From Catajapyx aquilonaris (lineage: Eukaryota), in contig KZ538547.1 of assembly GCA_000934665.2 (NCBI GenBank), forward strand, positions 1 through 62,830: a DNA stretch of 62,830 bases, given 5' to 3'. Shown piece after piece: positions 27,235-62,353 of the stretch; the first letter of the stretch is position 1, and every line of letters begins with the position of its first letter. The notes beneath the pieces were generated by a model. It made no database searches and was not told the DNA's origin. It worked only from the letters and a program-made list of their open reading frames with translations. The position numbers and the translations under genes were made by a program.

Positions 27235-29829
27235 CTTCTGTCAACATTAGGTGCAGAGCTTGGTTCAGCTTGGTGGTCTTTTCAGGCCTGAAAGGAAGTT
27301 CATGGTGTTGTATAGAGCACAAGTAAGGATGAGTCACTCTAACTCAGTCAATGACCTATCAGAAATATATCCGGCTCAGCGACTCTGTAGAAGGTGCATC
27401 TAGCGTTCCAAAACTACAGGAGAAAATCCTTTCACCAATGGAACCGGAACGAAGTACTTCATGTGGAATCCCCGCTTTCAGGAAAATCTCAAACCAACTA
27501 CTCGTTAGCGACGATGAAGAAATATCCCTAAAGCATGAGAATGTAAGCAATCTACGCATTCCGCAGCCCTCCTTCATTCGGTCATACGATGGAAACCCTC
27601 TTACAGTCAAGTCATGACAGAACGAACAAGATGAAAGCATTGTTGCATATTCACATAACAGCAATGCATCTTGAAACAGTCGGTAGGCAGATTGTATCCA
27701 AACTTCCAGAATATCTGATTTTGAAACGATTCGGGTGACAACCTGGGGATAGTTTTGCGAACTCTTGTACTGAGGCATATTAAATTCGTATCCAGAATTA
27801 TTTACGGAAGTAAGATAAAATAATTCTACCAAACTGCCGCTGTATACTGTACAGCTGCACAACAGTCTTTGTGAATATCATGAATACACATGAACTGCAC
27901 GATGCCGTTCGTTCCGCGCTATTCTTTAAAAATCAGCAAAATATCGTATATCCATCACAGCAGTCAAAAATGAAGACAAACTCAGGTATACACGACAGCT
28001 TAAGAAAAATTGCTTGCTCTAGCACTGTCACCACTTTGAGATGCCACTGCACTTGTAATATTGGTTGATTTATTGCTATTCTACCCCACTTGGAAGGGGC
28101 GGCCGCAATATAACACAATCCCCAACCTTCTTCGCTTCTTTGCACAATACTCTACAGTATCACTAGACAGCCCATAATAACACAGTGTCACAATAAAATA
28201 CTGTAATCGCAAGACAACCGCCTTTTCTCCTTAAAAAAATCCAACACCCAGGCAACTAGGCCACATTTGGCCCGCCTCTCAAGTCCCCAGCCCAATTATT
28301 CCCCACCCCTCAACTTCTCAAACGCATCTATTGCAAAATGCAGCAAGAGAGACGTCAAGGGTGCTGGGTCGTGCATGTGGGAAGAGGCAACTCTATGGAT
28401 GTGGCCCTGTAAAAGCCCATTTGCGGGCGCATTAGAGAGGAAAAGCCTTGGCGGCCATATCTTTTTTTGCACCCCCTTTTTCTCCCCCTTTTTCTCCCCC
28501 TTTTTCACCCCCTTTTGCCAGCATCTCTCCCTTTTGCAGTGTGATAGGTCGAGGAAGGAGGCAGCGCAATCCTTCTCAATTCCTCCGGACTTACCCGGAA
28601 AATCCTTGCAGCTGTGGTTGAGGCCTGGAAGAAAACATAACCGTTCTGGCAGCGAGTGTATATAGTGTGTGCTGCGTAGGAGGGATAGGCCCAAGTTGGA
28701 AAGTCTTTGGCAAGCGATGGTGGGAATGGGGCCTCCCCATGTAAGAGGCGGAAATTGAAGCGGACCCCTCGGCCATCACATCTGGCTCTATGTTCTCGCT
28801 TGGGTTCAATGGTCCAGATCAACCCAACTGCTTCTCTCCAGCCTCTATTCACGTCCAAAACTTTGTCCAGATGGAAAATAGTGTACCTCGTTACCGTTTC
28901 GACCCCCTCCAAAATGGGGATCTTTACCGCCCTGAAATTTCTCTTTTGTCACCTCAACTCGGCATTTTACAATGTCGTCGGTATGGCCATAGCACGGCGG
29001 GGGTTTATATGGGTCCCCAAAATTTTCATCAAAACGCGTTCAGGAGATTCCCTGGAATATTCCAGCATTTAATTTGTATACGCTTCTTTCTGCTGTACGC
29101 CATTAAAATGACCAACGACCAAATGCTTAATATCTCCAAAGGCTTACTCGTGACCTACTGCTTCCAACACTGAGCGAACCTGCAACGCCAAAACACATCT
29201 AAAAGCACGTCCTCAGGCCCAGTTTACACGGAAAATTTTGACCGTGTAATTCCACTTAGAGCCACTGCCAGTCCTACAAAAAAAAAATCCCGAATTTTCC
29301 CTGAAATTAACGAGCGATTAAAGAGCACGTGAGAGTACTCATATCCGGAGCGTCACACGTTTGAACGAATTTCCTATTGCCCGGCATAGCGGAGCATGCT
29401 TTATCGGCGCAGAGGTCCCAAGTGGCTTTTAAGAGGGTGAAAATGAAGAGTTAATCGTATGAATCAAGTAGGGTGTGTGTGAGTGTATTTGCGAGTTTCT
29501 AGACCAGCAGCGTGCAGAGAGGCGCAGAAGGCCTGGAGCCTGATTAATAATGGAAGTCTTCGGATCGATGCCCGTCTCCTGTCGACCAAAGACTCCGCTC
29601 CAGAACAGAAGGCTCGCAAGTGCCCAAGAAAAAGGCCAGCTAGCCACTAGGAAATTGCATTTTTTGGGGAAAAAAAGGTTCTCTCTACTACTGCCACGGT
29701 TTTCATTTCGTTCCTGCACCACTCGGTTGCGCAAAACTCATGGAGAACAAAGAACAGTCACGTCATATGCGTGCAGGTAAATTCTGTACAAGTAACTTAT
29801 ATGCTCTTGACCGTGTATATTTATAATAA

Positions 29830-35272: not shown

Positions 35273-38200
35273 TCAGTCCTCTTCGTCGTCGCCTCCTCCT
35301 CCCTCGCTTTTGATGATGCCCAGCCTGCGAGCAATTCCTTTCACACTGCTGATCACCTCTTCTTGGACCAAGTTGAAACTCATGGCCAAAAGAGCGATGC
35401 CAAAGAGCAGGTAGAGGGAGCAAAACGCGATGCTCATCTCTTCGGTGTCTGCTCCCTTCCTCGCTGGGACCAAATCTCCGAATCTGAGGAGTAAAAGCAA
35501 TACGTGTACCCTTGACAGTGTGAGTGACGTTTCCAGAAATACTTGCCCAATGGTTGTCAGCGTGATGAAACAAAAATATGCGGAATCCAAATAGTCCCAT
35601 TTCTCCCAAGTGACGAATAACCAGGCGCCACCCAGGATGTAAGCCAGCACCAGAAACACGCATAACCAGATGGGCACAGGCCGATTTCTAGAAAGAATAT
35701 TTAGCTATAATATAAGGTTCTTCAACGTTGGTCATGTCTTATTCCCACTGCTGAACAATTGACAGTTTATACTACTGGAGCTGACAATTTACGCCTTACT
35801 TCTCATGCTCGCCCTCCTCATCATCTTCATCTTCAACGTCGTCGATCACCTCTGGATACTCCGGGTACTCGTCACCCGCATCCCCTTCCCTATCCAGAAG
35901 CTCCTTGTCCCGGTAGTTGAACCTTCCCCTGGCAGAGATCGGAGTTTGCGGTGCCGACACAGACACACTGTCGGAACCCCCACGTGGTCCGCCCCCGACA
36001 CTCTCTGGGTCCCTCCCTCCAGGTCCTTGCCCTCGCTTACGGTGAGGGTACGAGTGTCGATGAGCAATGGGCTGGACTTGCCCAGCACTACTGCTTTGTT
36101 GTCGCGTCAATGTCCCGGCGCTACCACCCCCTCCCGGAGGTTGCAAGGGGAGTCGAAGCTCATCCGGATTCACGACGTACTTGTTAGAAATCACCGGAAC
36201 CTGCGGAACGACATTTGTGAGGGTACACCCAGGATTCGTCGCGGGTAATATGAGATGTGTGACGTAGTACCTTGGCAGCATCAGAGGAACTCCGCATGGG
36301 TGCAGCGTCTGGGGTCTTGGACCTCTGCGACGACCGCTTCGAATTACCCAACCCGGACGTGCCACTCCAGTCTGCTTCTTCAATGTACCTGCTAAATAAA
36401 CCCGACATACATACGATAACAAAACAGCGGCAGTATGGTTGGTGATGTGAAATCTACTTATTGTCTGGATCCGACGACGATCTGGAAATGGCCGAATCAG
36501 AAACGGCCGAGTCCGCCGATCGCTGGGAATGTCGCTGCGATCGCCGAAAGGAAGCCGTTCTTGCCCGGCCGGAAGCGCTCGGGTACCGGTTACTGCAAGT
36601 GGTCAACTTATTATGGCTTAGGTGTTTTTCATCCAAGATAATCTCCGTTTCAGACAATAACATTTCATGTGTGAAATCAGGTCTTTGTAAAATAATATGG
36701 GCGTGCAGTACCTTGATCGAGTCCTGGATCGCCTAGAGCGCCGTCGAGGCTTGCGGGTACAAAAGTAGCAACATATCTTCCAGTAGAAAAATCGAAATGA
36801 ATGCGCCATAGCATCTCCAATGTTGGACAAGCAGAGAAGCATCAGCGGGATGCCCAGAATGGCATAGATTATAGTCACGATCTTGCCCCATGGAGTTTTT
36901 GGAGCAATGTGGCCGTAGCCTACGAGAAAAATAGAAAAATGAATAGTTATTACATCATGAAAAAAAGGATCGTTGCAGTATAATTACTAATCCATCTATC
37001 AGAACATTAATGTGCTCAATTAATTCATATTATTCATAAAAATATTACCGTAAAACCAAGAGCTACTGGTAAAACTTATAAAACTCATGCACTGAAGTCA
37101 CTCTGCCTATTCCCAAGGTTTATAGTCAGTGGAGTCGTGGAGCTCATAACTTTTCACTACCGGTATGCTCATTCCTATCCGTATCATACAAGCTTCAGCA
37201 TCCACGTAAATATCTGCATATAGCTTGTCAATAATTCGTTGGAAAGAAATGCGTCACGTACAGTTCCACGTGATTTGGGCGAATAATATCCACTTGTACA
37301 TTTTCCAACAATCACCATCAAACGATTAGCCTACCGTACTTGATAGCATATAAGACGCACCCCCCATTTCAACAGATCATATTTAGTTTAAAAAAGTTCT
37401 TATAGTATTTTCGCATAAAAGACGCAGGGGGATTTTTTGAGCCATTTTGGAGGGGAAAAGTGCTTCTTATATAATATGCCGTCACATATGGTATTTGCAG
37501 AATATCCTTATTCATGAGCAGGCAGTTCTTATGATAAGCTTTTTTTTTTCATTTCACTCATTCAATACCATCTGCAATTGACAAAGGATCATGAATATAG
37601 AGAAGTTGTTATGCCTCTTTAGAAGCTATATTGCGCAATGCATCTGCATCGACTATGGCTATATTATGAGAACGCATATTGCGAAAATATGTCTCAGAAG
37701 AATAGTATACGTATGCTTGTGTACAGTACTTGAGACTTCATCGGGGACTGCTGCAAGCACTCGGTACACTCATATCTGAGTGGATCATGAAGTACATCGT
37801 GTTATTCTTCCTGGGGCTGGCCGTGCTGGCCCAGGGGCAGACCCCGCAGTTATCCCCGTCTGTGAACTGTTTCATTCATCGGATATTGAAGTTATTGGTG
37901 AGGAGATTTTGTATGTGTATGACAGATGTCGACCTAACACAAGATTCCTTCATTGCCCCGTACAGGGTCTACGCCAAGACGAGTGGATGACTGCAAAGGC
38001 TGTCCTAGTGGCCGGGAGTGACCCCAATGTGAACGGAACTACAACTATCACCCTGCGACAACGGTGCACCGGAGGACCCGTGCTGGTGGAAGGCCGCATT
38101 ACTGGACTAACTCCTGGAGACCACGGTTTCCATATCCACGAGAAGGGTGCCACTAGCAACGGATGCCTGGACGCCGGACCACACTTCAATCCCTATAATG

Positions 38201-41200: not shown

Positions 41201-43996
41201 GACCAGCACCGCCATGCTGGAGACTTGGGCAACATCCAGGCCGATTACAAGGGAGAAGCCTCTTTCAGGCTGCAGGATGTTTACATCAGTCTCCTCGAAG
41301 GCGAAACCAACGTCGTTGGGCGCGCCTTCGTGGTGCATGAAAAGCCTGATGACCTGGGTCGCGGGGGCAACGACGAGAGTCTCAAAACAGGAAACGCCGG
41401 GAAACGATTGGCCTGCGGGATCATTTCCCTAACCCGATAATGGCCTTCACTTTGTCGTAATCAGCCTCTTGCTTTACAATTCAGATGATGCTATGAATTG
41501 TTATCCAATTGACTGGAGATGCTTTTCTACCAAAATGAAAACATGACGTCGAAAATTGGGAAATGATGTCCCAACAAAATAATAGTCATGTGCTTTATGT
41601 CGTGCAGGTATTATGACGTGCACTGTATGCATTTTGAAAAATAAATTTGGCACTCTACAGCTTTAGCGCCTCCTTTCCCTTGATGAATCTTCCTTGGAGC
41701 CAAGTACGTTGTCAGATGTTATGACATCGTTAATGATAGTTTATGATCTTGTCCTTCCATGGTTATTTATGTGTTATGTAGGTCACTGTGCACGCAGTTG
41801 GAGCCGGTAGAAGGACTGTCAAATCATCCTGTAATTCTCGGATCCACCTGACCCGTGCCACACATGTCACAACAATGACCCTGATTTTTATAAAACAACA
41901 AAGATTCTTAAAAAGCGGGAGGAAGCGTAGTATAGTGACATGCCATGGTTTCCACTTCCACATGAATTCATCGTGTGTGAAATGAGCAGAACAATTATTT
42001 TAAAAATAATTAAATAACAGACACCTCTACGCACTTGGCCACAATTGCTATGCCATTCATGTCCTAATGACTGTCCAAAATCCTATCACTCCAGTTCATT
42101 AAAAAACTGGACAATTATATAACAGCAATAAACTTTTTATATAACTCTAGAACAATCTGGTTCGGTCAAGAAGCTGCTCACGTACCCTACCAGTCAGATT
42201 CGGAGAAAGGGGAAGGTCAAGGCCGTTGGTAGGAGGCAGTCACCTCAACCTTGTCCTCAATTGATCTTGCTACCTACAAATGGGCAAGAATTAAGGGAAA
42301 TCCCTGAAGGGTGATGGACATGGGGAAGGAGACTCCCAGTTGTTGACCTTCAAGCCCTCTGCAATTTCCACCTAACCGAAAACACTTTTGCGTAATAGGA
42401 GGTGAAGAAGTGCATAGCCCAAAAAACCTTGATCGCCTTGTTCCGGTGGCAATGGCCCTAACATCAGGTTAGCTTCATATAACAAACCCCTTTCCCCGCC
42501 TCCATCTAAGCATCCCAAGGTTTCCCACCTTCCTCTTCTTGGGATGACCCAATTCTAGCTGCGAGGTCACCTTCTGTCGAGGACCTTTTTAATTCGATGC
42601 CTTCGGAGGTGATAAAAAGCCTGCGAAGAAAATTGGTCGCCCAGTGCACCTTGATCCTCCAGGTAAGACAATTCAGCCCTTTTGTGCAAGAACGTGGTGA
42701 CTATTGTTTGGACATTTCAGAACCATGGAGATCCTTGTGATCATCCTCGTGGCGTCATTGGCATCGGTGTCATTGCCAATGCCTGAGGAGCGCGGCAAGT
42801 GGTCGTGGGGTCCGTCACACGGATCATCATACCCGTCACATGGGTCATCATATCCGTCACATGGGTCCTCATACCCGTCGTACCCGTCGTATCCGTCCTA
42901 CTGTCGCACTCATCACAAGCCCAGTGGCGGTGGCGGCGGCGGATGTATGCCCACATTTTGTCGCTCAGGTGACGAAGACAGCAGTGTCCGGGGTGAAGAC
43001 GACCGCTTCCATCATCACAAGCCGTCGCCATGTGCCCCTGGCTACTGTCGCACTTTCCACAAGCCCCAGAGCTGTCAACCGACCTTCTACCCGCGGCCAC
43101 CACGACCACCGCCTCAACACTACCCGCAATACCCCGAGTACCCGCACTATCCTCCTCCTCCACCTCCGCCACCCCACCGGCCAACAGGACACGAGAGGTG
43201 CAAGTGTGTCTCCCACTATGATTGTCGTCCGCCAGCATATGAAACCGTAAGTACAACCAGAGTGTCCATCTAACAATACGTGCGTGACACCGATGTCCCT
43301 TTCAGGAGCGGTGCTACCGTGGGATAGTTTGCTGCTCTAGAGGTGGAGGTGGAGGAGGATTCTTCGGTTCTTTCCCGTGGTGGAAAAGCGGGGAACAACC
43401 CAGGTCAACTGACTCTGACTGATTGCACCACTCTCACTGTGATCTCTGTTTGTCTTATTATTTGCTATAATAAAATCACTCTCTGTTGTCTGTTTATACG
43501 TCCGGTATTTCCTTACACTCACCTATGGTGGTGATGACCACGATGGAGTAGAATAGTGCCCCGTGGAATGTCCACTGCACGTTGTCCACATTCTCATCGC
43601 CGTCCCACCCTTTCTTGCGCATTGCATCGATGAGTTCGAGCTCGAATTTCGCCAGCTTTTCAGTCGCATTGCCTGACCACTCTTCGCGGTGCAACACCTC
43701 CGACTCCTGCATCAGATGCCAAAGCTCCTGGGTCACTTTGTGTCGCACCTTGGCCATGTTGCGCTTCACCTTCAACAAAACAGTGACGTCAAGCATGGTT
43801 TTTCCCCATTCCAACACTAATTCCTCACCTCTTTCTCGTGTTCCACTTCCAACTTCTCGAACGCAATACCTCCGATGAGACAATACCCGACGACCAACGA
43901 CACCAGTCCCACGTGCGAGAACAGGAAGGTGAGGAACTTGCTTCCCAAGTGCAAGCATCGCCTGCACTTGGTGTCATCCTCTCCAATCGGCCTCAT
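35273..43996 (-). CDS. Two-pore-domain potassium channel (K2P, TWiK-like) paralog 3, ~542 aa, long TM2-TM3 cytoplasmic loop
   Basis: Exons 43996-43829, 43769-43523, 36919-36712, 36592-36458, 36388-36271, 36200-35800, 35687-35547, 35483-35273. P1 '[16 protein letters not shown]', P2 '[14 protein letters not shown]' (GC-AG intron). The start Met is tentative: an acceptor at 44008-44009 implies upstream exon(s). Confidence 0.9.
37332..37493. mobile_element. Short non-autonomous DNA transposon (MITE-like, Tc1/mariner-pogo-type ends), degenerate
   Basis: Ends ta-ccgta...tatgg-ta with internal inverted motifs 'tataagacgcac' and 'gtgcttcttata'. It interrupts the alignment with SOD duplication unit 2. 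Confidence 0.45.
37787..38544 (+). CDS. Secreted Cu/Zn superoxide dismutase (extracellular type), copy A, ~206 aa, nested in K2P-3 intron
   Basis: Exons 37787-37897, 37966-38199, 38269-38544. Signal peptide [17 protein letters not shown]. Metal ligand and catalytic motifs intact: [44 protein letters not shown]. Exon 1 donor inferred from equal length (111 nt) in both copies. Confidence 0.93.
39254..39519. mobile_element. MITE with Tc1/mariner-type terminal inverted repeats
   Basis: 11-bp perfect inverted repeat agggtgttcca (39255-39265) / tggaacaccct (39508-39518), followed by g-ta. Absent from the matching position of duplication unit 1. Confidence 0.55.
40472..41440 (+). CDS. Secreted Cu/Zn superoxide dismutase (extracellular type), copy B, ~199 aa, nested in K2P-3 intron
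   Basis: Exons 40472-40582 (alternative donor after 40567), 40883-41110, 41180-41440. Signal peptide [17 protein letters not shown]. Motifs [45 protein letters not shown]. Confidence 0.93.
42725..43422 (+). CDS. Secreted Pro/His/Tyr/Ser-rich protein with a C-terminal six-cysteine module, ~212 aa, nested in K2P-3 intron
   Basis: Non-coding exon donor at 42663 (gtaag), acceptor at 42720, Kozak-like accATGg. Coding exons 42725-43246 and 43306-43422. Hydrophobic N-terminus, PSHGSSY x3 repeats, poly-Pro, [10 protein letters not shown]9-[14 protein letters not shown] at 43469. Confidence 0.8.
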
Positions 43997-52642: not shown

Positions 52643-54644
52643 TCAACTGGAACAGCTGACACGTATTTTATGGGCCCAATGTGGTGGTGGCTGGGCATAA
52701 CCATGCTTTTCAGCTTCTTCATGCGTGACGAATGGGTTTTGAAGAATCTTCAGGAGCAGCTGGACTTCATCATAGTTGCCCTGATCTGCCTTCTCAATAG
52801 CAGACTGGGCCATCCAGTTTCGCAAGACATACCGTGGGTTGGTCTGCACCATTCTTTTCTGAACTTCCTCAATCTTGCCTTCCTTTGCTGCCCTTGCCAC
52901 ATACCAATCTACAAATTTGTTCCACTGCTTGTGATGGGTCAGAGGTGCCAGGGCCCATTCAGTCTTTGGGCATGGCTTTTTCCACATCTCAGGGGTGACT
53001 TCAGAAAGTTGTCGAAATGTCATGGTGAAGTCCGTCTTGACCAGTGCCATCATTTCCAGCAGTTCTTCAATCTTCACTAAGTCTCCATCCAAAACTGACT
53101 TGAACCCAAGTTTGGCTGCAAATACCTGTGCCCTCTCCCTCTTGTAATGACCATCATACTCCTTTGTCCGGTCGGACAGCTTCTCTTGATTTTCACGGGA
53201 TATCAGTGGTGCCAGAGCTGCAGCCAAACGCAAAAGGTTAAAGTTGCCAATATCTGGCTGCTGGGAGTAAGCATAACGTCCCCAGTCATCAGAGTGGTTT
53301 GGGATAAAATCAGGTTCGTATGTGTCCAAAAATCCGTAAGGCCCGTAATCAATTGATATCGATAAAATTGACATGTTGTCAGTATTCATTACTCCGTGGG
53401 CAAACCCAACAGCCTGCCATCGTGCTATCATGGCTGCCGTCTGTCTTATTACTGTTGATAGGAAGTCCAGGTACTTATCATCACCAGATGATTTTATTTC
53501 CCTGGAACAAGTTTAAAATACAGTAAAGGCTGGAAAGGAGACTTTTAATGAACATATTAAGTCTTACGGAAAGTGTTCCTTGATGATAAAGTCAGCCAGA
53601 GTTTTGAGGGAACCATGCTCGCCGTGCTTTGCCAGAATTTCAAACGATCCAAAACGAAACCAAGATGGGGCCAGCCGAAGCACTACCGTCGCCTTCTCAA
53701 CAGTGGGATGTCCATCATAAAACTGGTCCCTTCTCACTGGGTCATTGGATGTCACCAGAGTTCCAGCTCTGGAAGTTGGTACCCCTGGCCATGCAAGAGA
53801 AAATACGCATTAATCTTTTTGATCCACTTGAACCACGCCAGCAACCCACCTAAATGAAACATTGCCTCTGAGGCTAGGAATTCCCTAACGGACGACCTCA
53901 GCACAGCCCTCCCATCTGCGTCCCTGGAATATGGGGTCATCCCAGACCCCTTCAGTTGCAACTCCCACCTCTCCCCATTCTGGTTAATATACTCTCCTAG
54001 GAGATGGGCTCTCCCATCCCCCAGCTGGTCGGCCCACATGCCAAACTGATGTCCTCCATACCGATGGGCAAGTGGGGTTGACCCTTCCACGAGACGGTTC
54101 CCAACCATCAGCTCAGCAAGAAATTGGGCTTCAGATTCATCAGCAGCCACTCGATCAGGGTCAATGTCAAGTATTTTGGACAGGACATCCGGTGTTACGG
54201 CCACCAAGTGAAGCTTTGTTTGTAAAGGGGTAGGGCTCACCTGATGCAAAAAAGTTATGATCAAGTAATGCCCGTAAGTTCAACAACATAACAGATTATC
54301 TTTTTATCACCTGTGTGATAACTGTTCAGCCATTTTACCTTTGAAAATATGGCTTGCTTCACATATCGCCTGACAAAATTCTTCTCCTCCGGATCCATGG
54401 GCAACTGCTGCAATTTGAAGGAGTTGAACCTGAAATCCTTCACAGAGAGCAACTTGTGTCCTCCACCACCTTTGCCCCCAGATGACGTCCCCGCCTCTGC
54501 CCCGCTCATGCTGCAGCGGGCGAGAAATATGCTCCTAGTCGTAGGGCGTGGGCAGGACTGTCCCGCGGCGACCTCTGACCCGAGTGTCGTGCCCACTAGG
54601 ACGGCAAAAACCCTGAACAAGTGTCCCACTAATCTGTTTCCCAT
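52643..54644 (-). CDS. SelO: SelO/YdiU-family protein adenylyltransferase (AMPylase), Cys-containing form, ~590 aa
   Basis: Exons 54644-54339 (alternative ATG at 54674), 54240-53850, 53784-53568, 53501-52643. Motifs [60 protein letters not shown]-terminus VSCSS. Confidence 0.95.
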
Positions 54645-54925
54645 CTCACGACCGCCGCCATCTTCAAACCGCATCCGAATAGCCCATGCCCATTGCACAA
54701 TTGCAGTAAATGTACAATATTTTACAAATATATTTGCATTTGTACGTTTTATAAATACACATAGCACGATCTAGCTGCAGATAGGTCACAGGTTATGACC
54801 TTTGTCAAGCACACACGCTGATTACGTCACATGCAATTCGGACACGGGCTGTGCTGTACACGTTCGATGCCATCAAGTCACTTTTGACCCGTCGGCCTGA
54901 CCTGCCCGTTAGGTCTATTCCTATG

Positions 54926-57603
54926 ATGGCTTACACCACCGAATATATTAAGGACAAGCTTCTGAAGGAACTGGAGGCCTCCCACGTTGTGAGTCGCACC
55001 CTACTTTTGTGTATATTTCTTAACATGAGTTACGTGCCGCCAAGAGTAAATGGTGCCGCTTAATGCTGAGATGCGGCCTTGTGATTGTTGCAAAATGACC
55101 ATTTTTTGTGCCCCTAAGGCTACCTCCTCTTTTTTGCATCACTTCTCTGGGTCATGACGTGGGTGCTTACCTTGTGGAGGTGGGGGATCCACCAGTGCAG
55201 TTTTCCTGCTTGGTGGGATCGCAGTGTATAGACGCATAGGGTGTACTTTTAAGAAAATGGCCCATTTCGAGCTTGTTTCTTGCATTATGGCATAGTTGAT
55301 TAATGTCGTATGATGAGCTTGTAGTGTGGTTACACTAGGATTAGAATTGGTACTAAGTGCACTTGTTTAGCCAGACTGTGACTAGCCCCTGTTCCATCTC
55401 AGATCCACTAAGTAAGCGCAAACCAAAATCCTCTGAACCATGTTGGTGTGGATCCTTGCATCGTGCGCCTGGGGGCTGCTTCTCCGATGGTCTACAGGCC
55501 TCTCGTCCTATTCTGGTCAGGGAAGGCCACCTATGTACGGTGACTATGAGGCCCAGCGCCACTGGATGGAGGTCACCATCAACCTGCCTGTTGAAGACTG
55601 GTATCGCCAGACGCCAGAGAATGACCTGCAGTACTGGGGATTGGACTACCCCCCCTTGACTGCCTACCACAGTTATGCATGTGGTCTGGTTGCTAAACAT
55701 ATCAATCCTGAGTTCGTGGCATTGAATAAGTCACGTGGATTTGAATCTAAAGAGCACAAGTTTTTCATGCGAGCAAGCGTTTTAGTTGGCGATATATTGC
55801 TCTTCTTCCCGCTTCTGGTGTGGTTCTTTAAGATGGCGATGGATCAAAAGAAGAGCCGGTTTTATCTAGGAGAATTAACAGTTAATGATGCTGCCACTGC
55901 AATTGGTGTGGCAGCGACCTATCCCGGTTTGATTCTAATAGATTACGGGCATTTCCAGTACAATTCGGTGTCATTAGGGTTAGCGCTAGGTGGTGTAGCA
56001 GCATTAGGAAAGGGCATGGAGTCACTGGGATCTTTGCTGTTTGTGATGGCGCTGAACCATAAGCAAATGGAGCTGTATCATGCACTGCCTTTCTTTTGGT
56101 ATCTGTTTGGGTTGTGCTGCTTTAGGCGCGGAGGATTTAAGAGGCTTGTTAAGGTTGGGGCTACTGTTGTAGTTGCATTTTGGGTCATATGGTTGCCATT
56201 TTTGGTGCAGAGCCATGGGGCACTAGATGTGCTGCACCGCCTCTTTCCATTGTACCGAGGCGTGTTCGAGGACAAAGTGGCCAACTTTTGGTGCACATTG
56301 AACAATTTCGTGAAGATTCGCAACCTATACAGCCAAAGTGAGATCACACTCATGTGCTTGTTGACCACTGCCCTTCTTTCGCTCCCGTCTTCCTTACACT
56401 TGTTCCGAAGACCCACCCTCTCCAACTTCCTCTATTCCCTTCTCAACGTTTCCCTCATCTTCTTCCTTTTTTCATACCAAGTGCATGAAAAGAGCGTCCT
56501 TCTCGTTGCACTTCCTGCCTTGCTCCTCTTCCCAAAACATCCAAGGTCTATTTACTGGTTTTTGGCTGTAACTACATTCAGTATGACTCCTTTGCTCTTG
56601 AAGGATGGACTGCTGGTCCCAATCATTGCCTTGTCCATCATATTTCATGTGGTTGCCACGGAAGTGATGCAGGACACTGGTAAAGGGAAAGCCAAGGACA
56701 AAACAAGCCCATTCATGAAATCAGTAATGAAATATTCACTCAGAGGATGTGTGGCACTGTTTGCTCTCTCCGTCTTCGGCACTCCTCCTGATAAATATCC
56801 GGACTTGTACCCTGTCCTTGTGTCGGCCTATTCCTGTGCTCACCTTGTCCCATTTTCAATTTTTTTCCACTGGAAACAGTTTCAAGCTAAATGAGTGCAC
56901 TGTACCAATTATTGCAGATTAAAAATTAGTTTCATGACGTACAATGTCTTTAATTTGCCTCCTAAAGTTTCTGTAGTGTAGAGTAATGTACGAGTATGTA
57001 TATGCATGTGTTAAGTATTAGCAACAGCATGTGCAGTAAATACATTAACATAATTCATATAATCTGTACTTTCTTGTCAATTTCTTTTGAAATCAAAAAA
57101 GTCAAACCTCTTACACTCCTGCACAAGTTCAGAACCGTAATGCTTAAACTGTTCCGTTAATCTGTATGCAATCAGGTGACAATTATTTACATTGGTAAGG
57201 TGGTGTTTCATAACAAGCTCAAGGACATATGGAGTCTAATGCAATTGTAAATTTTCATCTTAAGAGATATTGCTTGACAACAGCACCTTATGCAAGCTAA
57301 GTACTTGAATCTTGAATTACTTGAATCATTACTATTAGTCACCATGTTGGATGTTACACTTGATGGGATTCAGTCAGTAAGTATCCACATGTCTCTTCCT
57401 GATCAATACAGGAAGTGGAGGACCTCTCAGACGGATGTGGCTCCAAGTTTAGTGTACTGGTGGTCTCGTCCAAGTTTGAGGGAAAGCCCCTGCTGCAGCG
57501 ACATCGACTGGTGAACTCATCCTTGGCAGTGGAATTGGGCAGCATACACGCTCTGAGCCAGAAAACTCTGACGCCAGAGCAGTGGGCAAACCAGAAGCCA
57601 TGA
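54926..57603 (+). CDS. BolA2: BolA-like protein 2 (Fe-S cluster/glutaredoxin partner), ~84 aa
   Basis: Exons 54926-54988 (extra in-frame ATG at 54923; donor gtgagt) and 57412-57603 join in phase 0: MAYTTEYIKDKLLKELEASHV|EVEDLSDGCGSKFSVLVVSSKFEGKPLLQRHRLVN...IHALSQKTLTPEQW. Confidence 0.92.
55440..56894 (+). CDS. ALG6: Dolichyl-PP-Man9GlcNAc2 alpha-1,3-glucosyltransferase, 484 aa, intronless, inside the BolA2 intron
   Basis: Single ORF with PPMYGDYEAQRHWMEVT, YWGLDYPPLTAYHSY, LIDYGHFQYN, KQMELYHALPFF, RGVFEDKVANFWC, FSYQVHEKS. ATTAAA at ~56918. Confidence 0.96.
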   Translation: MLVWILASCAWGLLLRWSTGLSSYSGQGRPPMYGDYEAQRHWMEVTINLPVEDWYRQTPENDLQYWGLDYPPLTAYHSYACGLVAKHINPEFVALNKSRGFESKEHKFFMRASVLVGDILLFFPLLVWFFKMAMDQKKSRFYLGELTVNDAATAIGVAATYPGLILIDYGHFQYNSVSLGLALGGVAALGKGMESLGSLLFVMALNHKQMELYHALPFFWYLFGLCCFRRGGFKRLVKVGATVVVAFWVIWLPFLVQSHGALDVLHRLFPLYRGVFEDKVANFWCTLNNFVKIRNLYSQSEITLMCLLTTALLSLPSSLHLFRRPTLSNFLYSLLNVSLIFFLFSYQVHEKSVLLVALPALLLFPKHPRSIYWFLAVTTFSMTPLLLKDGLLVPIIALSIIFHVVATEVMQDTGKGKAKDKTSPFMKSVMKYSLRGCVALFALSVFGTPPDKYPDLYPVLVSAYSCAHLVPFSIFFHWKQFQAK

Positions 57604-58813
57604 GTTTCCAGCCATTTGCCATCTCCTCCCCATCTAAGGTCATCCTCCATGGGGAGCACTCTGTTGTGTATGGCAAAACAGCTGTTGCTGTGTCGGTTGG
57701 GTTGCGCTTGCGTGTCACTGTCAGGCGCCACCCAACCGGTGGAGTGACCCTTGACCTGCCTGCCATGTCATTCAAGCGGCACTGGACCAATCTTGGAATC
57801 ACTTCCCTGCTGAAAGCCAGATCTAACTTGAACTGGTCTGAACCCCAGCCGGCCGATGACTTAATCCAAGCCATACGTGAATTTGTACACAGCGATGAAT
57901 TGACAGCTCAGCAAGAAATGGCCTTGGTGTCATTCCTGTACTTATATTCGGCCATACTTGGAGAGGCCATACCTATGTGTGTCCGAATAGACTCATGTGT
58001 TCCATTTGGAGCTGGCATGGGGAGCTCGGCTGCTTACGCTGTGGCCTTATCGGCAGCCATGCTACACGTGGGCGGACACTGTCAGGGCGATAACCTTCCA
58101 CGTGACCTCATCTCACGCTGGGCCTTCTGCAGTGAAGGAATAGTCCATGGCACCCCTTCAGGGATAGACAACTCCACTTGCACCATGGGAGGTGCAGTCA
58201 GCTTCCGGGCAGGAAAGGCAGAGCCACTTGGAAGCAAGATCCCTGCACTGAAGGTGTTGCTTGTGGATACTGGGGTCAGCAGGAGCACCAAACGACTAGT
58301 TGAGCTTGTCCGGGAGAAGCGGGGGAGGCACCCACAGGTTGTGGATGCAGTACTGGATGCAATGGATGCTGTGGCTAAATCAGCACTGGAGGAACTACGC
58401 AGCCTGAAGATGGGTGATGCGAACCAGTTTCACTTCTTGGAGGTAACTTTTTTAAGTATTACACAATACATCATCAATGCATTTCCAGCAGATTTGGGCA
58501 GATCATGTGACCAATGTGATGCAAAAAATTCCAGGAGCTCGTTGACTTGAACCAGTCTCTGTTGGCAACTCTGGGTGTATCTCATCCGAGCTTGGACCGC
58601 ATCGTGTCTGTAGCTGCCTCCCATGGTTTTCATGCCAAATTGACTGGTGCTGGTGGAGGGGGACTGGCCTTTGTTCTGCTGGCTCCAGGAGCAGAGCCGG
58701 CCACTGCGAAGCTCCTGAAGGACGAGCTGGAATCTGAAGGATTTCGTACTTGGCAGACGGAGCTGGGAGTGGATGGGGTGCGGGTTGAGGATCTGGACAT
58801 GGGAAGAGCTTGA
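57600..58813 (+). CDS. MVK: Mevalonate kinase, ~373 aa
   Basis: Exons 57600-58442, 58535-58813. Motifs SSPSKVILHGEHSVVYGK, GHMP loop PFGAGMGSSAA, HGTPSGIDN, KLTGAGGGG. The ATG overlaps the BolA2 stop. Confidence 0.95.
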
Positions 58814-59417
58814 AGAAATATGAAATTTTGTAGAAAGATAAAATATGTTATTCAACATTGGCCAGTACTGGCACCATTTTATATACACCAGGGATGAGGG
58901 GAAAATAATTTAGTACAATTTGTATGGTACTTAAAAATAATATCTTGTAGATGTGGAACATTGTAGCTCTGCACAAACAGTGATACCTTATTATTTCAAT
59001 CCTTATCTTCTAGCTATGGTATAAACTATAAAGGATGATGATAAAATACTGTTACTGTACATGTAGATTTGCTGGACCACTCAAAATTGTGTTTTGTGTA
59101 AAAAATATACTTGTGATTGGGCTAACTTGATTTGGCAACGTGATCGTCTAGTTCTATACAGTCTGCTTACAACTTTGAAGGAACTTGACCGACACATCTC
59201 ATTGTGATGTTAGCTTTGTCACTTTGCCGCCTTGATAAACCACTGTCCAAGCTACATTCATGTATTCATGCAACTTGCTGTGTGCCCTGGAATGTGAGCA
59301 ACTGCAGGTGGCCTGTCTAGGTGGCTCATGATGCGTCACAAGCAGAACCTGTCACTACAATGTGGACTTGTGCATTAAGGTATGTGGCTAAACCTTCTCT
59401 TATACTGAGACAGAATG

Positions 59418-62353
59418 TTACACATCTGCAATGTGGTTGGCATTGCTTACAGGTGACAGGCTACTCTGCTCTTCCTCCTCCTCCTCGGCCTTTCTCAGCC
59501 ATTCAGAAATCTCTTTCTGGTACATTCGCTGCAACAACACGTCTTTGGTGCGAGATCGCCTTCCTTGATAAGCGACCATGCCCTCCTGTTGCAAATCCAG
59601 TGCAAATTGCTGCAGTAAATGAACATCGCTTGTGTTGTGATAGCACACATTCAGTTCTTCTTGAGTCAGTTGAACCTCCACACACAGCATCTTTCGCTCT
59701 GAAATTTATGGTGCACATAAGATTACAATGTAGCTAACATAAGGCATAACCTTACCTTCTGCTTTCCCCATGGTCCTCTTATATTGTATGCGAAACACAA
59801 ATGTCTCCAGCACAAAGGCAACGATGATGGTCAGAACCACCATGGTAACAAGGTAAAACAGCATGAAATATAAGCGACTCCACTGAGACGTCACTGCTGC
59901 ATATGCATCCATAATGATAAACCAGTTGTTTACCACAGTCAGTTCAAAGAGAGTTATAAAGCTGGTGGTTAGGTCACTGAAGGTATTCAAGTAGTAGTAG
60001 CCCTGGTATATTGAGGCATTGTCCACCTTGTAAAACTGTTCCACAGTTGTGTTCCTGAAATAAGGCTTATTATGAATGGAACATGACAAAGAAAATGGAA
60101 GTCCCTTACACGCAACAGTTTTTCATCTCGTATCCAGAAAACAGCTCCATGCCAACAATGGCAAAGGAGTAATACAAAATCAGCAGCACGACAGCTGCAG
60201 CTCCCATCCTCGGCAGTAAAATGAACAGAGTTCCAAAAACATCCCGGTACCGCTTCTTCAGCTTGAAGAAACGCAGCAGTCGAATTGGCCTCAGCAGGGC
60301 CATAGTGGCAGAAGAAAAGTTGAGGTATTCCAGAAGTGAGCCGATGGCTGCCCCAATTGTGACCCCAAGATCAAAGACATTCCATCCAGATGCAAAATAC
60401 TGCACTGGTCCAAGGCCACCCAATTTTAAGGCAGCCTCCACAGCGTACACTGTCAAGTACATGATTATATTGTCAATGAAAAGAAGATTTGAAACAACCA
60501 GATGTACCTACATGAAAGGAATACAATCGCATCCCAAGATGTCTGGTGACCTATTTTCAGGCCACTAACATCAAACGTCCTCAGCAAAAGAGCAATAGCA
60601 TTTGCCAATATAATAGCATCTGGAAAGTTATTATTATTCAATTAAAATTGTATTACATCTTGATCAACACTTCGCATTGTTATTCAATACTTACAGACTG
60701 CCCAGTCAAAATACTTCCATGTAACAAGTTTGTATAGGTACCGAGATATCCTGGACCAATGAGGAGGAAGCATCTCATACCAGGGAGTTTCCTGAATGCG
60801 TTTTGGACGCCACAGGACAACCAACAAATTGTACACATTTTGAAATTCTGCCAATGTCAACCTCCCTGTCCTGGACACATTTAGAGCTTTGAAGGACAGA
60901 TACACATCTCTTCTGGCTGTAAAGCAACGATGGATAAGAACCATCCATTCACATGTGTACATGTACTTGAACATACACATTTTCGGTCTGTAGTGCCTTA
61001 GTAGGCCTGCATAATGGTGGAAGACAATGTGATCTGGCCTCTGTCGAGATACCAACAACCGGAAAGCATGTTGGCATGCCTTTCGCTTGTGAAGCAGCAG
61101 ACGGTGGAACTTCTCCTTCTCAAATGTTGTGAAAGTTTCATACACCACAGCCAACAGCTAAAAAAATAACATCAAATTATTTCAAAACACACACATCAAT
61201 TACGACTTAAACTTACGAGATTCATCAGGAAATACAGAGTGACGCAGAGGTACACAACAAAAAACAATGCAGACCATCTGCTATTGGCATATGCTGGCAT
61301 CATCACATCTGGGTAACTGAGCGAGATAGATAATTCATAAATACATATCAGATTTGCATTTTACGCACACCTTACTTTGCTGTGGTGAGTAGCACAAAAA
61401 GGCTGACAAATGCCTCAGGAAGTGAAGAGAAATATGGGTTCCTGGGGTCTGTCCCAAACATGTATAGTCCCAGAAGGCTAAAAAGAAGGACAAATACTAG
61501 GAGCAGGACCAGCATGTCGAGGATGGGCGGAAGGCTCTGCAGAACTTGTCTCAGGAATCGCCTCATCCCACCACAGTAGCGGTTGTCCACAAGAAATAGG
61601 GGTCGGAGGGCACGGGTAACACGGAAGTGAGATGATTGCCGCACCAGCACCACGATGGATTCCACTACCATTATCAGAAGAGTACCTGCCTGAATAAGGA
61701 CCACAATATCAGGTAATGTACTCGTTCAATCCACAATTTAATGCATATTTACCTTCAGCATTGTCCGCTTATGAAAGAGGAAAGGTCTCCATCCAAGCCA
61801 CCGCAGCTTCATTGCCAGTTCTATTCCCATGATGACTAACAGGCACAGTTCAATTGACCCATGAATTCCCACTGGCAACTGCAATGAAAATGGACATCTT
61901 TACATTTTTATGTCCTGTTACGACATTTATTACATTCATTACCAGACTGGCATAAATAGGACAAAGGGGAATGTCCGACGCAACTTTGGCAATGCCAGTG
62001 TTGTATTACCTGGAAGACAGTAGAAGCAGGCTGTTCCACGAGGGCAAGTGCCAGTAGTGCCAGTGACGCAATCAGGTCCAACCAGTAGAACCAGCGGTTG
62101 TGCACCACCAGGTAAGCCGGAAGGGCTTCCCTGTTCCTGGGATGGGAGGTGAACTTGTCATTGTTGGCACCTTCCTCCAGAAAGATTGCTGCTTCCTGGT
62201 AGTTCATCTCCCAGTGCCACAGGACCTTGGACGGACTCATGTCTTCTTCAACTGGGGAACTCATCTCCGTGTTGGGGAGGATGGGCATCGATGTTTCGAA
62301 GTTGCGGCCTATCATCTCCTGCGGGCCATCCGAATCCTGACTTGTGTTTGTCC
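59418..62353 (-). CDS. TPC1: Two-pore endolysosomal cation channel, TPC1-like (5' end uncertain)
   Basis: Exons 62353-62010, 61878-61753, 61689-61376, 61316-61217, 61157-60977, 60916-60695, 60619-60512, 60449-60110, 60054-59756, 59698-59418. Motifs WEMNYQEAAIFLEEG, RVTRALRPLFL, pore I LLTTANYPDVMMP, pore II FELTVVNNW. The start is either an in-exon Met or in an upstream exon not resolved. Confidence 0.93.

What the first reader, a model, noticed from the sequence alone, without database searches (positions are those of the whole stretch)
54989..57411. Intronless ALG6 nested on the same strand in the BolA2 intron, linking two dolichol-pathway enzymes in one unit
Seen: a 1455-nt single-exon ALG6 lies between BolA2 exons 1 and 2, although every other gene here has introns. 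A good acceptor (ttccatctcag, ending 55402) precedes its ATG and an ATTAAA follows its stop. Splicing BolA2 exon 1 to that acceptor gives ATC CAC TAA, turning exon 1 into a short uORF ahead of ALG6. Established: MVK feeds isoprenoid and dolichol synthesis, and ALG6 acts on dolichol-linked glycans. Inference: a retrogene that captured the host promoter, so a splice/polyA choice selects ALG6 versus BolA2+MVK mRNA, an operon-like three-protein locus.
Basis: partly seen in the sequence, partly recalled or inferred. Interest (0 to 1): 0.75.

Follow-up and report, generated by a model that had tools for sequence, protein, structure and literature searches.

The report
ALG6 gene sharing BolA2's first exon
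A complete, intron-free gene for the glycosylation enzyme ALG6 sits inside the only intron of the small BolA2 gene and is spliced onto BolA2's first exon, and this layout, with mevalonate kinase just behind, is shared by many insects and crustaceans.

Summary
Observation confirmed. The 484-codon ORF 55440-56894 is a full-length ALG6 (Pfam PF03155 E 1.5e-138; yeast ALG6 structure 6SNH E 3.6e-86). It lies in the BolA2 intron (54989-57411). The BolA2 stop overlaps the mevalonate kinase start (ATGA, 57600-57603).

The predicted junction exists. One contig of run X1 joins 54861-54988 to 55403-56941 with GT..AG ends. ALG6 mRNA therefore starts with BolA2 exon 1 and ends 18 nt after ATTAAA. On that mRNA exon 1 becomes a 24-codon uORF, 28 nt before the ALG6 ATG.

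It is not a young retrogene. Merged gene models in 17 species of insects, a lobster and an ostracod show ALG6 before BolA exon 2 and/or MVK. Six metagenome contigs show the full order at DNA level, with ALG6 uninterrupted in five.

The BolA/Mvk dicistron is known in Drosophila (PMC2276209). I found no paper on the nested ALG6.

Still open:
- The 54988-to-57412 junction was not seen.
- How ALG6 is translated, and the dolichol co-regulation idea, are inference.

The scan noted three other shared-first-exon pairs elsewhere in this genome. Verdict: new member of a known kind; interest 0.55.

The parts
54861..54988 (+). Shared first exon. The 5' leader reaches at least back to 54861. BolA2 start codons are at 54923 and 54926. 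The donor GT is at 54989.
   Evidence: Contig record 3 of run X1 covers 54861-54988 and joins it to 55403. The sequence was read.
54923..54988 (+). BolA2 coding exon 1, 22 codons. On the ALG6 mRNA it forms the body of a 24-codon uORF.
   Evidence: It matches the N-terminal 21-22 residues of BolA2 proteins directly before the exon 2 peptide (for example P0177 81%, P0134 67%). tblastn finds it upstream of ALG6 in 6 metagenome loci.
54989..55402 (+). 414-nt intron removed from the ALG6 mRNA. It holds all 11 ATGs that lie between exon 1 and the ALG6 start.
   Evidence: Joint 54988 to 55403, GT..AG, side 128 nt. ATG positions.
55403..56941 (+). ALG6 terminal exon: uORF tail ATC CAC TAA (55403-55411), a 28-nt ATG-free spacer, the CDS 55440-56894, and a 3' UTR to about 56941.
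   Evidence: Contig record 3 covers 55403-56941 without gaps or differences. ORF.
55440..56894 (+). ALG6 coding sequence, 484 aa, a single exon.
   Evidence: PF03155 E 1.5e-138. Yeast ALG6 structure 6snh E 3.6e-86. Every name shown by a source among the 120 listed hits that states a function is ALG6-type (Man9GlcNAc2 alpha-1,3-glucosyltransferase, plain alpha-1,3-glucosyltransferase, 'glucosyltransferase-like protein', or ALG6/garnysstan); many rows are unnamed or 'hypothetical protein'; none reads ALG8.
56918..56923 (+). ATTAAA poly(A) signal of the ALG6 mRNA.
   Evidence: Sequence. The RNA contig ends 18 nt further on, at 56941. A contig end is only a weak indicator of an RNA end.
54989..57411 (+). 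BolA2 intron, 2423 nt, GT..AG, which holds the whole ALG6 exon.
   Evidence: Exon borders come from homology to BolA2 proteins. An in-frame stop lies 4 codons upstream of 57412. This junction was not seen in RNA.
57412..57603 (+). BolA2 exon 2, 63 codons plus TGA.
   Evidence: PF01722 E 3.1e-17. 77-79% identity to the best insect BolA2 matches.
57600..58813 (+). Mevalonate kinase CDS, 373 aa. Exon 1 is 57600-58442, the intron 58443-58534, exon 2 58535-58813. Its ATG overlaps the BolA2 stop as ATGA.
   Evidence: PF00288 E 1.1e-11. Joint 58440 to 58533 with 'cut +2'. Frames.

Best explanation
One transcription unit gives three proteins. Transcription starts upstream of BolA2 exon 1, at a head-to-head promoter shared with a SelO-like gene on the other strand.

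The donor at 54988/54989 has two possible partners:
1. The near, strong acceptor at 55402. This gives an mRNA that ends at the ATTAAA site after ALG6.
2. The far acceptor at 57411. This gives BolA2 mRNA, which runs on into mevalonate kinase, whose ATG overlaps the BolA2 stop.

On the ALG6 mRNA the BolA2 start codons open a 24-codon uORF that stops 28 nt before the ALG6 ATG. ALG6 must therefore be translated by reinitiation or by leaky scanning.

The layout dates back at least to the common ancestor of insects, decapods and ostracods.

Shown here: the ALG6 identity, the exon 1-ALG6 junction, and the conserved order.

Inferred: the shared promoter, the BolA2 junction in this species, the bicistronic BolA2-MVK mRNA, and how ALG6 is translated.
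For: RNA evidence
- Junction 54988 to 55403, GT..AG, sits inside a 1667-nt contig that runs through the whole ALG6 CDS to 56941.
- The run's kind is not on record. I take it as RNA because it shows five GT..AG or CT..AC joints in four neighbouring genes.

Protein identities.

Conservation in merged gene models
- 15 of the 78 BolA-exon-2 hits longer than 111 aa also carry the ALG6 domain, as does P0063.
- In all 16 the ALG6 segment comes before the BolA exon 2 segment.
- 4 of the 16 begin with the BolA exon 1 peptide, and 4 of the 16 run on into MVK.
- Two further beetle and wasp models join ALG6 to MVK.
- Together these are 17 species in Thysanoptera, Orthoptera, Hymenoptera, Diptera, Coleoptera, Psocodea, Decapoda and Ostracoda.

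Conservation at DNA level
- 6 of 80 metagenome loci carry BolA exon 1, ALG6, BolA exon 2 and MVK on one strand. L011 and L010 are cut short.
- ALG6 is one uninterrupted match in 5 of the 6.
- BolA exon 1 is followed by GTAAGT or GTATGT in all 6.
- L008, L010 and L013 are close relatives of each other, so these are about four lineages.

Leader design
- In 5 of the 6 loci the 53-128 nt between exon 1 and the ALG6 ATG hold no ATG. Chance of zero ATG in base shuffles: 0.09, 0.30 and 0.04 for the three independent lineages.
- In the window all 11 intervening ATGs lie inside the spliced-out intron.

Precedent: the Drosophila CG33672 (BolA-like, 86 aa) / CG33671 (Mvk) dicistronic transcript (PMC2276209, passages read).
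Against: - The 54988-to-57412 junction is not among the joints of the only run. A 288-nt contig (57264-57551) reads unspliced through that acceptor. Contigs drop rare forms, so this proves nothing. It does leave open that much MVK mRNA starts inside the intron.
- Only one run, of unrecorded kind, carries the RNA evidence, and it may come from the same animal as the assembly.
- The merged gene models are annotation errors. They show order and strand, not transcripts.
- L012 has 3 ATGs in its spacer.
- 74 of the 80 metagenome loci, 37 of them 4 kb or longer, show no BolA or MVK next to ALG6. Their organisms are unknown. L032 and L041 best match crustacean-like ALG6 proteins over only about 200 residues and may be crustaceans without the layout.
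- A 28-nt spacer is short for efficient reinitiation. That judgement rests on my recall of work on reinitiation distance, not on a test here.
Confidence: 0.75

Rival explanations
1. ALG6 is an independent nested gene with its own promoter in the intron. On this view the exon 1 junction is a minor, opportunistic isoform.
For: Nested genes with their own promoters are common. Contigs cannot show transcription starts.
Against: The only contig that reaches the ALG6 5' end carries the junction and does not branch there. In six other loci the ALG6 ATG lies only 53-173 nt after BolA exon 1, which leaves little room for a separate promoter.
Confidence: 0.1
2. A recent retrocopy of ALG6 landed in the BolA2 intron of this lineage. 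A parental, intron-bearing ALG6 sits elsewhere in the genome.
For: The gene has no introns, lies in sense orientation inside an intron, and depends on the host's first exon.
Against: The same nested order is found in 17 species of 8 orders and in 6 metagenome loci. No flanking direct repeat of 14 nt or more was found, and no A-run follows the 3' UTR. The ORF is full length and keeps every column that is invariant in 18 other ALG6 proteins.
Confidence: 0.03
3. The three-gene linkage is kept by structure, not by function. Once ALG6 depends on BolA2's first exon, and MVK on BolA2's transcript, no rearrangement can separate them without killing a gene. The dolichol connection would then be coincidence.
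For: BolA2 is an iron-sulfur cluster factor, by established knowledge of the family and by PMC13240139 (passages read), and has no link to dolichol. A comparable fusion of functionally unrelated genes, Su(var)3-9 with eIF2-gamma, has lasted about 400 million years in insects (PMC1435931, abstract read). The BolA stop to MVK start spacing varies from -4 to about 288 nt between lineages, so the tight coupling itself is not conserved.
Against: There is no direct evidence against it. MVK does feed dolichol synthesis and ALG6 does use dolichol-linked substrates (established pathway knowledge), so co-regulation is plausible. This rival concerns why the layout persists, not what it is, and it is compatible with the best explanation.
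Confidence: 0.5
4. MVK is mostly made from a separate mRNA that starts in the intron downstream of ALG6 (between 56942 and 57264). BolA2 exon 2 would then be only its leader, so the locus yields ALG6 and MVK messages while BolA2 is a rare splice form.
For: A 288-nt contig (57264-57551) runs unspliced through the exon 2 acceptor, and the exon 1 contig does not branch towards 57412.
Against: Such a leader would carry several upstream ATGs, including a 74-codon ORF starting at 57290, which is a poor design for MVK. BolA2 exon 2 is well conserved (77-79% identity to the best insect matches) and cannot be translated without exon 1. The contig may simply be unspliced precursor RNA. Drosophila has a true dicistronic mRNA.
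Confidence: 0.2

Closest known systems
Cholinergic gene locus (VAChT inside the first intron of ChAT)
   Same: A complete gene lies in an intron of a host gene on the same strand and is expressed with the host's 5' exon and promoter. The layout is conserved from invertebrates to mammals (abstract of bioRxiv 10.1101/2021.03.29.437568, seen in the listing). That VAChT has no introns is my recall.
   Different: As I recall, the shared exon there is non-coding and the two products act in one pathway. Here the shared exon encodes the host's N-terminus and becomes a uORF for the nested gene. Host and guest are functionally unrelated, and the host message also carries a third cistron.
Drosophila CG33672 (BolA-like) / CG33671 (mevalonate kinase) dicistronic gene
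   Same: The same two proteins lie in the same order on one strand: an 86-aa BolA-like ORF upstream of Mvk. The pair is conserved to the honey bee by EST (PMC2276209, passages read).
   Different: The passages I read do not mention ALG6 (gny, CG5091). I could not check whether gny lies in the CG33672 intron. The window has an ATGA stop-start overlap, while other lineages have 12 to about 288 nt between the two ORFs.
Su(var)3-9 / eIF2-gamma fused locus of insects
   Same: A single exon for an unrelated protein sits in a conserved intron of a housekeeping gene and uses that gene's first exons. The arrangement is about 400 million years old and is found in eight insect orders (PMC1435931, abstract read).
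   Different: There the shared exons are read in frame and give both proteins a common N-terminus. Here the frame closes after two codons and no fusion protein is made.
Other shared-first-exon pairs noted by this scan in the same genome (ITFG1/GTF3C4, COP1/LAP3, YIPF5-like/PLEKHM2-like)
   Same: Each is an intronless gene nested on the same strand in an early intron and spliced onto the host's first exon or exons (notes listed, not re-tested here).
   Different: At least two of those (ITFG1, YIPF5-like) are reported as in-frame fusions to the host's first codons. This one is out of frame and gives a uORF, and it adds a downstream dicistron.

Membership tests
ALG6 (dolichyl-P-Glc:Man9GlcNAc2-PP-dolichol alpha-1,3-glucosyltransferase, Pfam PF03155) | Full-length match to the ALG6/ALG8 family profile | tested here: met
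   PF03155 E 1.5e-138, residues 15-472 against profile positions 4-479 of 482.
ALG6 (dolichyl-P-Glc:Man9GlcNAc2-PP-dolichol alpha-1,3-glucosyltransferase, Pfam PF03155) | ALG6 rather than its paralogue ALG8 | tested here: met
   The only solved-structure hit is yeast ALG6 (6snh/6sni), E 3.6e-86 over residues 7-394. Among the 120 listed hits, every source name that states a function is ALG6-type or a plain alpha-1,3-glucosyltransferase, many rows are unnamed or 'hypothetical protein', and none reads ALG8. No ALG8 sequence was scored side by side.
ALG6 (dolichyl-P-Glc:Man9GlcNAc2-PP-dolichol alpha-1,3-glucosyltransferase, Pfam PF03155) | Conserved core residues kept, so an intact enzyme rather than a decaying copy | tested here: met
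   In alignment A1 (19 sequences) about 100 columns are invariant with the window included, among them the GDYE.QRHW, LDYPPLT and HEKS stretches. Which residue is the catalytic base is my recall and was not tested.
ALG6 (dolichyl-P-Glc:Man9GlcNAc2-PP-dolichol alpha-1,3-glucosyltransferase, Pfam PF03155) | Glucosyltransferase activity on the lipid-linked glycan | not testable with these tools
   Needs an enzyme assay or complementation of an alg6 mutant.
Nested gene sharing the host's 5' exon (cholinergic-locus type) | A complete ORF in one exon inside a host intron, on the same strand | tested here: met
   ORF 55440-56894 lies inside the intron 54989-57411.
Nested gene sharing the host's 5' exon (cholinergic-locus type) | The nested gene's mRNA begins with the host's first exon | tested here: met
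   Joint 54988 to 55403 inside contig record 3.
Nested gene sharing the host's 5' exon (cholinergic-locus type) | The host mRNA is made by splicing across the nested gene | tested here: inconclusive
   Required by BolA2 homology, but the 54988-to-57412 joint is not in the one run's contigs.
Processed retrogene | No introns where the ancestral gene had them | tested here: inconclusive
   ALG6 is intronless here and in 5 of 6 related loci. The intron content of ALG6 outside Pancrustacea was not examined. That human ALG6 has many exons is my recall.
Processed retrogene | Poly(A) remnant and target-site duplication | tested here: not met
   No direct repeat of 14 nt or more flanks the exon, and there is no A-run after the 3' UTR. 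For an insertion this old such marks would be expected to have decayed.
Processed retrogene | A parental copy elsewhere in the genome | not testable with these tools
   No whole genome is held for this window.
Dicistronic BolA-like/Mvk gene (Drosophila CG33672/CG33671 type) | A BolA2 ORF directly upstream of the MVK ORF on one strand | tested here: met
   The stop TGA at 57601-57603 overlaps the ATG at 57600-57602.
Dicistronic BolA-like/Mvk gene (Drosophila CG33672/CG33671 type) | One mRNA carries both ORFs | tested here: inconclusive
   Contig record 5 starts at 57529, inside BolA2 exon 2 and 71 nt before the MVK ATG. Record 4 (57264-57551) overlaps it by 23 nt. No single record spans all of exon 2 and MVK.

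The most novel reading that the evidence does not exclude
Pancrustacea carry a roughly 500-million-year-old nuclear 'operon' in which one promoter serves three proteins. A regulated choice at one splice donor, near acceptor plus intronic poly(A) site against far acceptor, sets the ratio of ALG6 (glucosylation of the dolichol-linked glycan) to BolA2+MVK (iron-sulfur handling and isoprenoid/dolichol supply). The conserved BolA2 N-terminal exon doubles as a translated uORF that throttles ALG6 through reinitiation.
Probability: 0.2. Interest if true: 0.75.

Novelty: new member of a known kind. Interest (0 to 1): 0.55.

Why it matters
The locus is a clean, RNA-supported case of three unrelated proteins coming from one animal promoter. 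It uses two devices at once: a shared first exon with alternative terminal exons, and a stop-start dicistron.

Its age, spanning insects, a decapod and an ostracod, makes it a useful marker of pancrustacean genome architecture.

It is also a recurrent source of annotation error. At least 18 public gene models wrongly fuse ALG6, BolA2 and MVK.

It offers a natural system for two questions:
- How a splice and polyadenylation choice apportions a promoter's output.
- How a host gene's coding exon behaves as a uORF for its guest.

Because the same scan found three other shared-first-exon pairs in this genome, the mechanism may be a general route by which arthropod genes become intronless and nested.

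Tried and rejected
Searches that gave nothing
- Own genome: none is held. I could not look for a parental ALG6 copy or a second BolA2 first exon.
- Sequencing runs: no RNA holder listed. The single holder, X1, has no recorded kind. I treat it as RNA only because of its spliced joints.
- Earlier scan notes near this place, by ALG6 sequence, and by the words ALG6/BolA/mevalonate: nothing.
- Rfam on 54300-59300 at E up to 0.1: no match.
- Repeats: only four chance-level pairs of 14-17 nt, none flanking the ALG6 exon.
- Literature: six searches found no paper that links ALG6 or gny with the BolA/Mvk locus, and none giving gny's map position. One search, on nested genes with shared first exons in insects, gave nothing specific.

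RNA cover that supports no inference
- 56942-57263 has no cover in X1 and no contig joins across it.
- The 54988-to-57412 junction is absent from the joint table. This cannot be read as true absence.

Ideas considered and dropped
- Spliced-leader operon. A cis-splice to exon 1 is seen instead. The tight polycistrons in L004 and L006 belong to other, unknown organisms.
- In-frame BolA-ALG6 fusion protein. The frame hits TAA after two codons.
- A BolA2 start inside the intron. An in-frame stop lies 4 codons before exon 2.
- An unspliced ALG6 leader in this species. It would carry 11 extra ATGs.

Coordinate slips
- Searches failed because I gave frames that contained stop codons. I corrected the coordinates and the search ran.
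Full report
**What is in the sequence**

The + strand between 54861 and 58813 holds three protein-coding genes.

- BolA2 has two coding exons. Exon 1 is 54923-54988: 22 codons, two adjacent ATGs, and GTGAGT following at 54989. Exon 2 is 57412-57603, after an AG at 57410-57411. Exon 2 matches Pfam BolA, E 3.1e-17, profile positions 25-76 of 76.
- Exon 1 aligns to the N-terminal 21-22 residues of BolA2 proteins, directly in front of the exon 2 peptide.
- Exon 2 cannot be translated alone. An in-frame stop lies four codons before it.
- The BolA2 stop overlaps the start of mevalonate kinase as ATGA (57600-57603). MVK is 373 aa with one 92-nt intron.
- Inside the 2423-nt BolA2 intron lies the ORF 55440-56894, 484 aa. 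It matches the ALG6/ALG8 family from end to end, E 1.5e-138.
- Its only solved-structure relative is yeast ALG6, E 3.6e-86.
- The source names that state a function among its 120 best listed database hits are ALG6-type. Many hits are unnamed. The best identity is only 53%.
- It keeps every column that is invariant in 18 other ALG6 proteins.

**The predicted splice is real**

The one public run that holds this DNA is X1. It is kept as contigs and its kind is not recorded.

- All five contigs that were laid are at least 99% alike to the window.
- They show five GT..AG or CT..AC joints in four neighbouring genes. I therefore take the run as RNA-derived.
- Contig record 3 (1667 nt, depth 17.2) covers 54861-54988, skips 414 nt with GT..AG ends, and continues from 55403 through the whole ALG6 ORF to 56941. 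That end is 18 nt past the ATTAAA at 56918-56923.
- The acceptor has the best pyrimidine tract (0.87) of the nine candidate AGs with a tract of 0.6 or more that the script listed in the interval.
- After the splice the BolA2 frame reads ATC CAC TAA. Exon 1 thus becomes a 24-codon uORF that ends 28 nt before the ALG6 ATG.
- All 11 ATGs between exon 1 and that ATG lie within the removed intron.

**What the RNA does not show**

- The junction 54988 to 57412, which BolA2 needs, is not among the joints.
- A 288-nt contig (57264-57551) reads unspliced through that acceptor.
- A 2791-nt contig starts at 57529, inside BolA2 exon 2 and 71 nt before the MVK ATG. It runs through MVK into the 3' end of the convergent minus-strand gene.
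- Contigs drop rare forms, so the missing junction is not evidence of absence.
- The 'choice' between ALG6 and BolA2+MVK messages, and the single BolA2-MVK mRNA, therefore remain inferred for this species.

**The layout is old**

Protein evidence:
- A search with BolA exon 2 for longer proteins gave 78 hits. Of these, 15 also carry the ALG6 domain and 3 carry only MVK domains.
- One ALG6 hit from a thrips carries a BolA domain.
- I mapped the window's four parts on these proteins. In all 16 ALG6-plus-BolA models the ALG6 segment comes before BolA exon 2.
- Four models start with the BolA exon 1 peptide: three Anopheles species and Vespula vulgaris.
- Four models run on into MVK: Anopheles dirus, Molorchus, Polyplax and the ostracod Darwinula.
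- A search with MVK exon 1 added Aromia (ALG6, BolA exon 2, MVK) and Trichomalopsis (ALG6, MVK).
- In total these are 17 species of six insect orders plus the lobster Homarus americanus and an ostracod.
- These proteins are gene models that wrongly merge neighbours. They show order and strand, not real fusion proteins.

DNA evidence:
- A scan of metagenome contigs with an ALG6 alignment kept 80 loci.
- tblastn with the window's parts found BolA exon 1, ALG6, BolA exon 2 and MVK, all on one strand, in six of them.
- L008, L010 and L013 are close relatives of each other.
- L017 is closest to a chironomid ALG6, at 66%.
- L011 and L012 are unassigned but best match unnamed, thrips and other arthropod-like ALG6.
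- ALG6 is one unbroken match in five of the six.
- BolA exon 1 is followed by GTAAGT or GTATGT in all six.
- The other 74 loci, 37 of them 4 kb or longer, show no BolA or MVK. Their organisms are unknown and most look non-arthropod. L032 and L041 may be crustaceans without the layout.

**A shared leader design**

- In the six loci the ALG6 ATG lies only 53-173 nt after BolA exon 1, against 451 nt in the window.
- Read without splicing, the BolA frame stops after 25-29 codons (43 in L012), 35-104 nt before the ALG6 ATG.
- Five of the six spacers hold no ATG.
- Chance of zero ATG in base shuffles is 0.09, 0.30 and 0.04 for the three independent lineages. L012 is an exception with three ATGs.
- The window reaches the same end state by removing a 414-nt intron.
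- This fits ALG6 translation by reinitiation or leaky scanning after a short uORF. The general mechanism was read in PMC10275272 (passages). Nothing here tests it.

**Comparison with what is known**

- The BolA-like/Mvk dicistron is established in Drosophila: CG33672/CG33671 at 49B10, an 86-aa upstream ORF, conserved to the honey bee (PMC2276209, passages).
- The spacing between the two ORFs is not conserved: -4 nt here, 12 nt in L017, about 288 nt in the termite-like trio.
- The nesting of ALG6 resembles the cholinergic locus (abstract in the listing). It also resembles the insect Su(var)3-9/eIF2-gamma locus (PMC1435931, abstract).
- Earlier notes of this scan list three more shared-first-exon pairs in this same genome. 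I did not re-test them.
- The differences here: the shared exon is coding for the host but only a uORF for the guest, and a third cistron follows.
- Six literature searches found no description of ALG6 at this locus.
- I could not check Drosophila's own gene map.

**Origin and meaning**

- An ancient retroposition of ALG6 into the BolA2 intron is a reasonable origin, but no scar remains and no outgroup was examined.
- The dolichol link between MVK and ALG6 is real biochemistry.
- However, genes that share an exon stay linked whether or not co-regulation is selected, and BolA2 has no part in that pathway.
- I rate structural lock-in as at least as likely as pathway coupling.

**Verdict**

The locus is an ancient pancrustacean three-protein unit: a new member of a known kind, of moderate interest.

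Noticed in passing
window 57600-57603: The BolA2 stop and the MVK start overlap as ATGA. In related loci the spacing is 12 nt (L017) or about 288 nt (L008, L013), so the overlap is lineage-specific.
   Followed up: partly
window 57264-57551: An RNA contig reads unspliced from the intron through the BolA2 exon 2 acceptor. It could be intron retention, precursor RNA, or an internal start for MVK mRNA.
   Followed up: no
window 52643-54640, minus strand: A SelO-like gene, judged by eye from the translations and not scanned against Pfam, lies head to head with BolA2 exon 1. Its first-exon contig ends at 54640, and the BolA2/ALG6 contig starts at 54861. This suggests a bidirectional promoter of a few hundred bases.
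   Followed up: no
window 58814-59756: One RNA contig runs from MVK through its 3' UTR into the 3' exons of the convergent minus-strand gene, with a CT..AC joint from 59698 to 59756. The two 3' ends therefore abut or overlap.
   Followed up: no
L006 34-3791 and L004 541-2524: Two metatranscriptome-like contigs of an unknown organism carry ALG6 in tight same-strand arrays with unrelated ORFs, with spacers of 46-56 nt. In L004 a 144-aa ORF precedes it. In L006 a 504-aa ORF and a 208-aa ORF follow it. I did not scan these ORFs against any family library. They look like operon transcripts of a trans-splicing organism and not like the arthropod layout.
   Followed up: partly
public proteins P0063, P0121-P0146, P0178, P0189, P0198, P0206, P0210: At least 18 deposited gene models in 17 arthropod species merge ALG6 with BolA2 and/or MVK into one chimeric protein. 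This is a systematic annotation error caused by this locus.
   Followed up: yes
window about 8600 and about 46540: Runs of N, read as X in the translations, mark assembly gaps.
   Followed up: no
window 15670-16218, 24603-27240, 35273-36983, 43494-43973, minus strand: Several ORFs carry potassium-channel pore-like motifs (TIGFGD and TIGYG types). They look like tandem two-pore-domain K+ channel paralogues. This was seen only in the ORF list.
   Followed up: no
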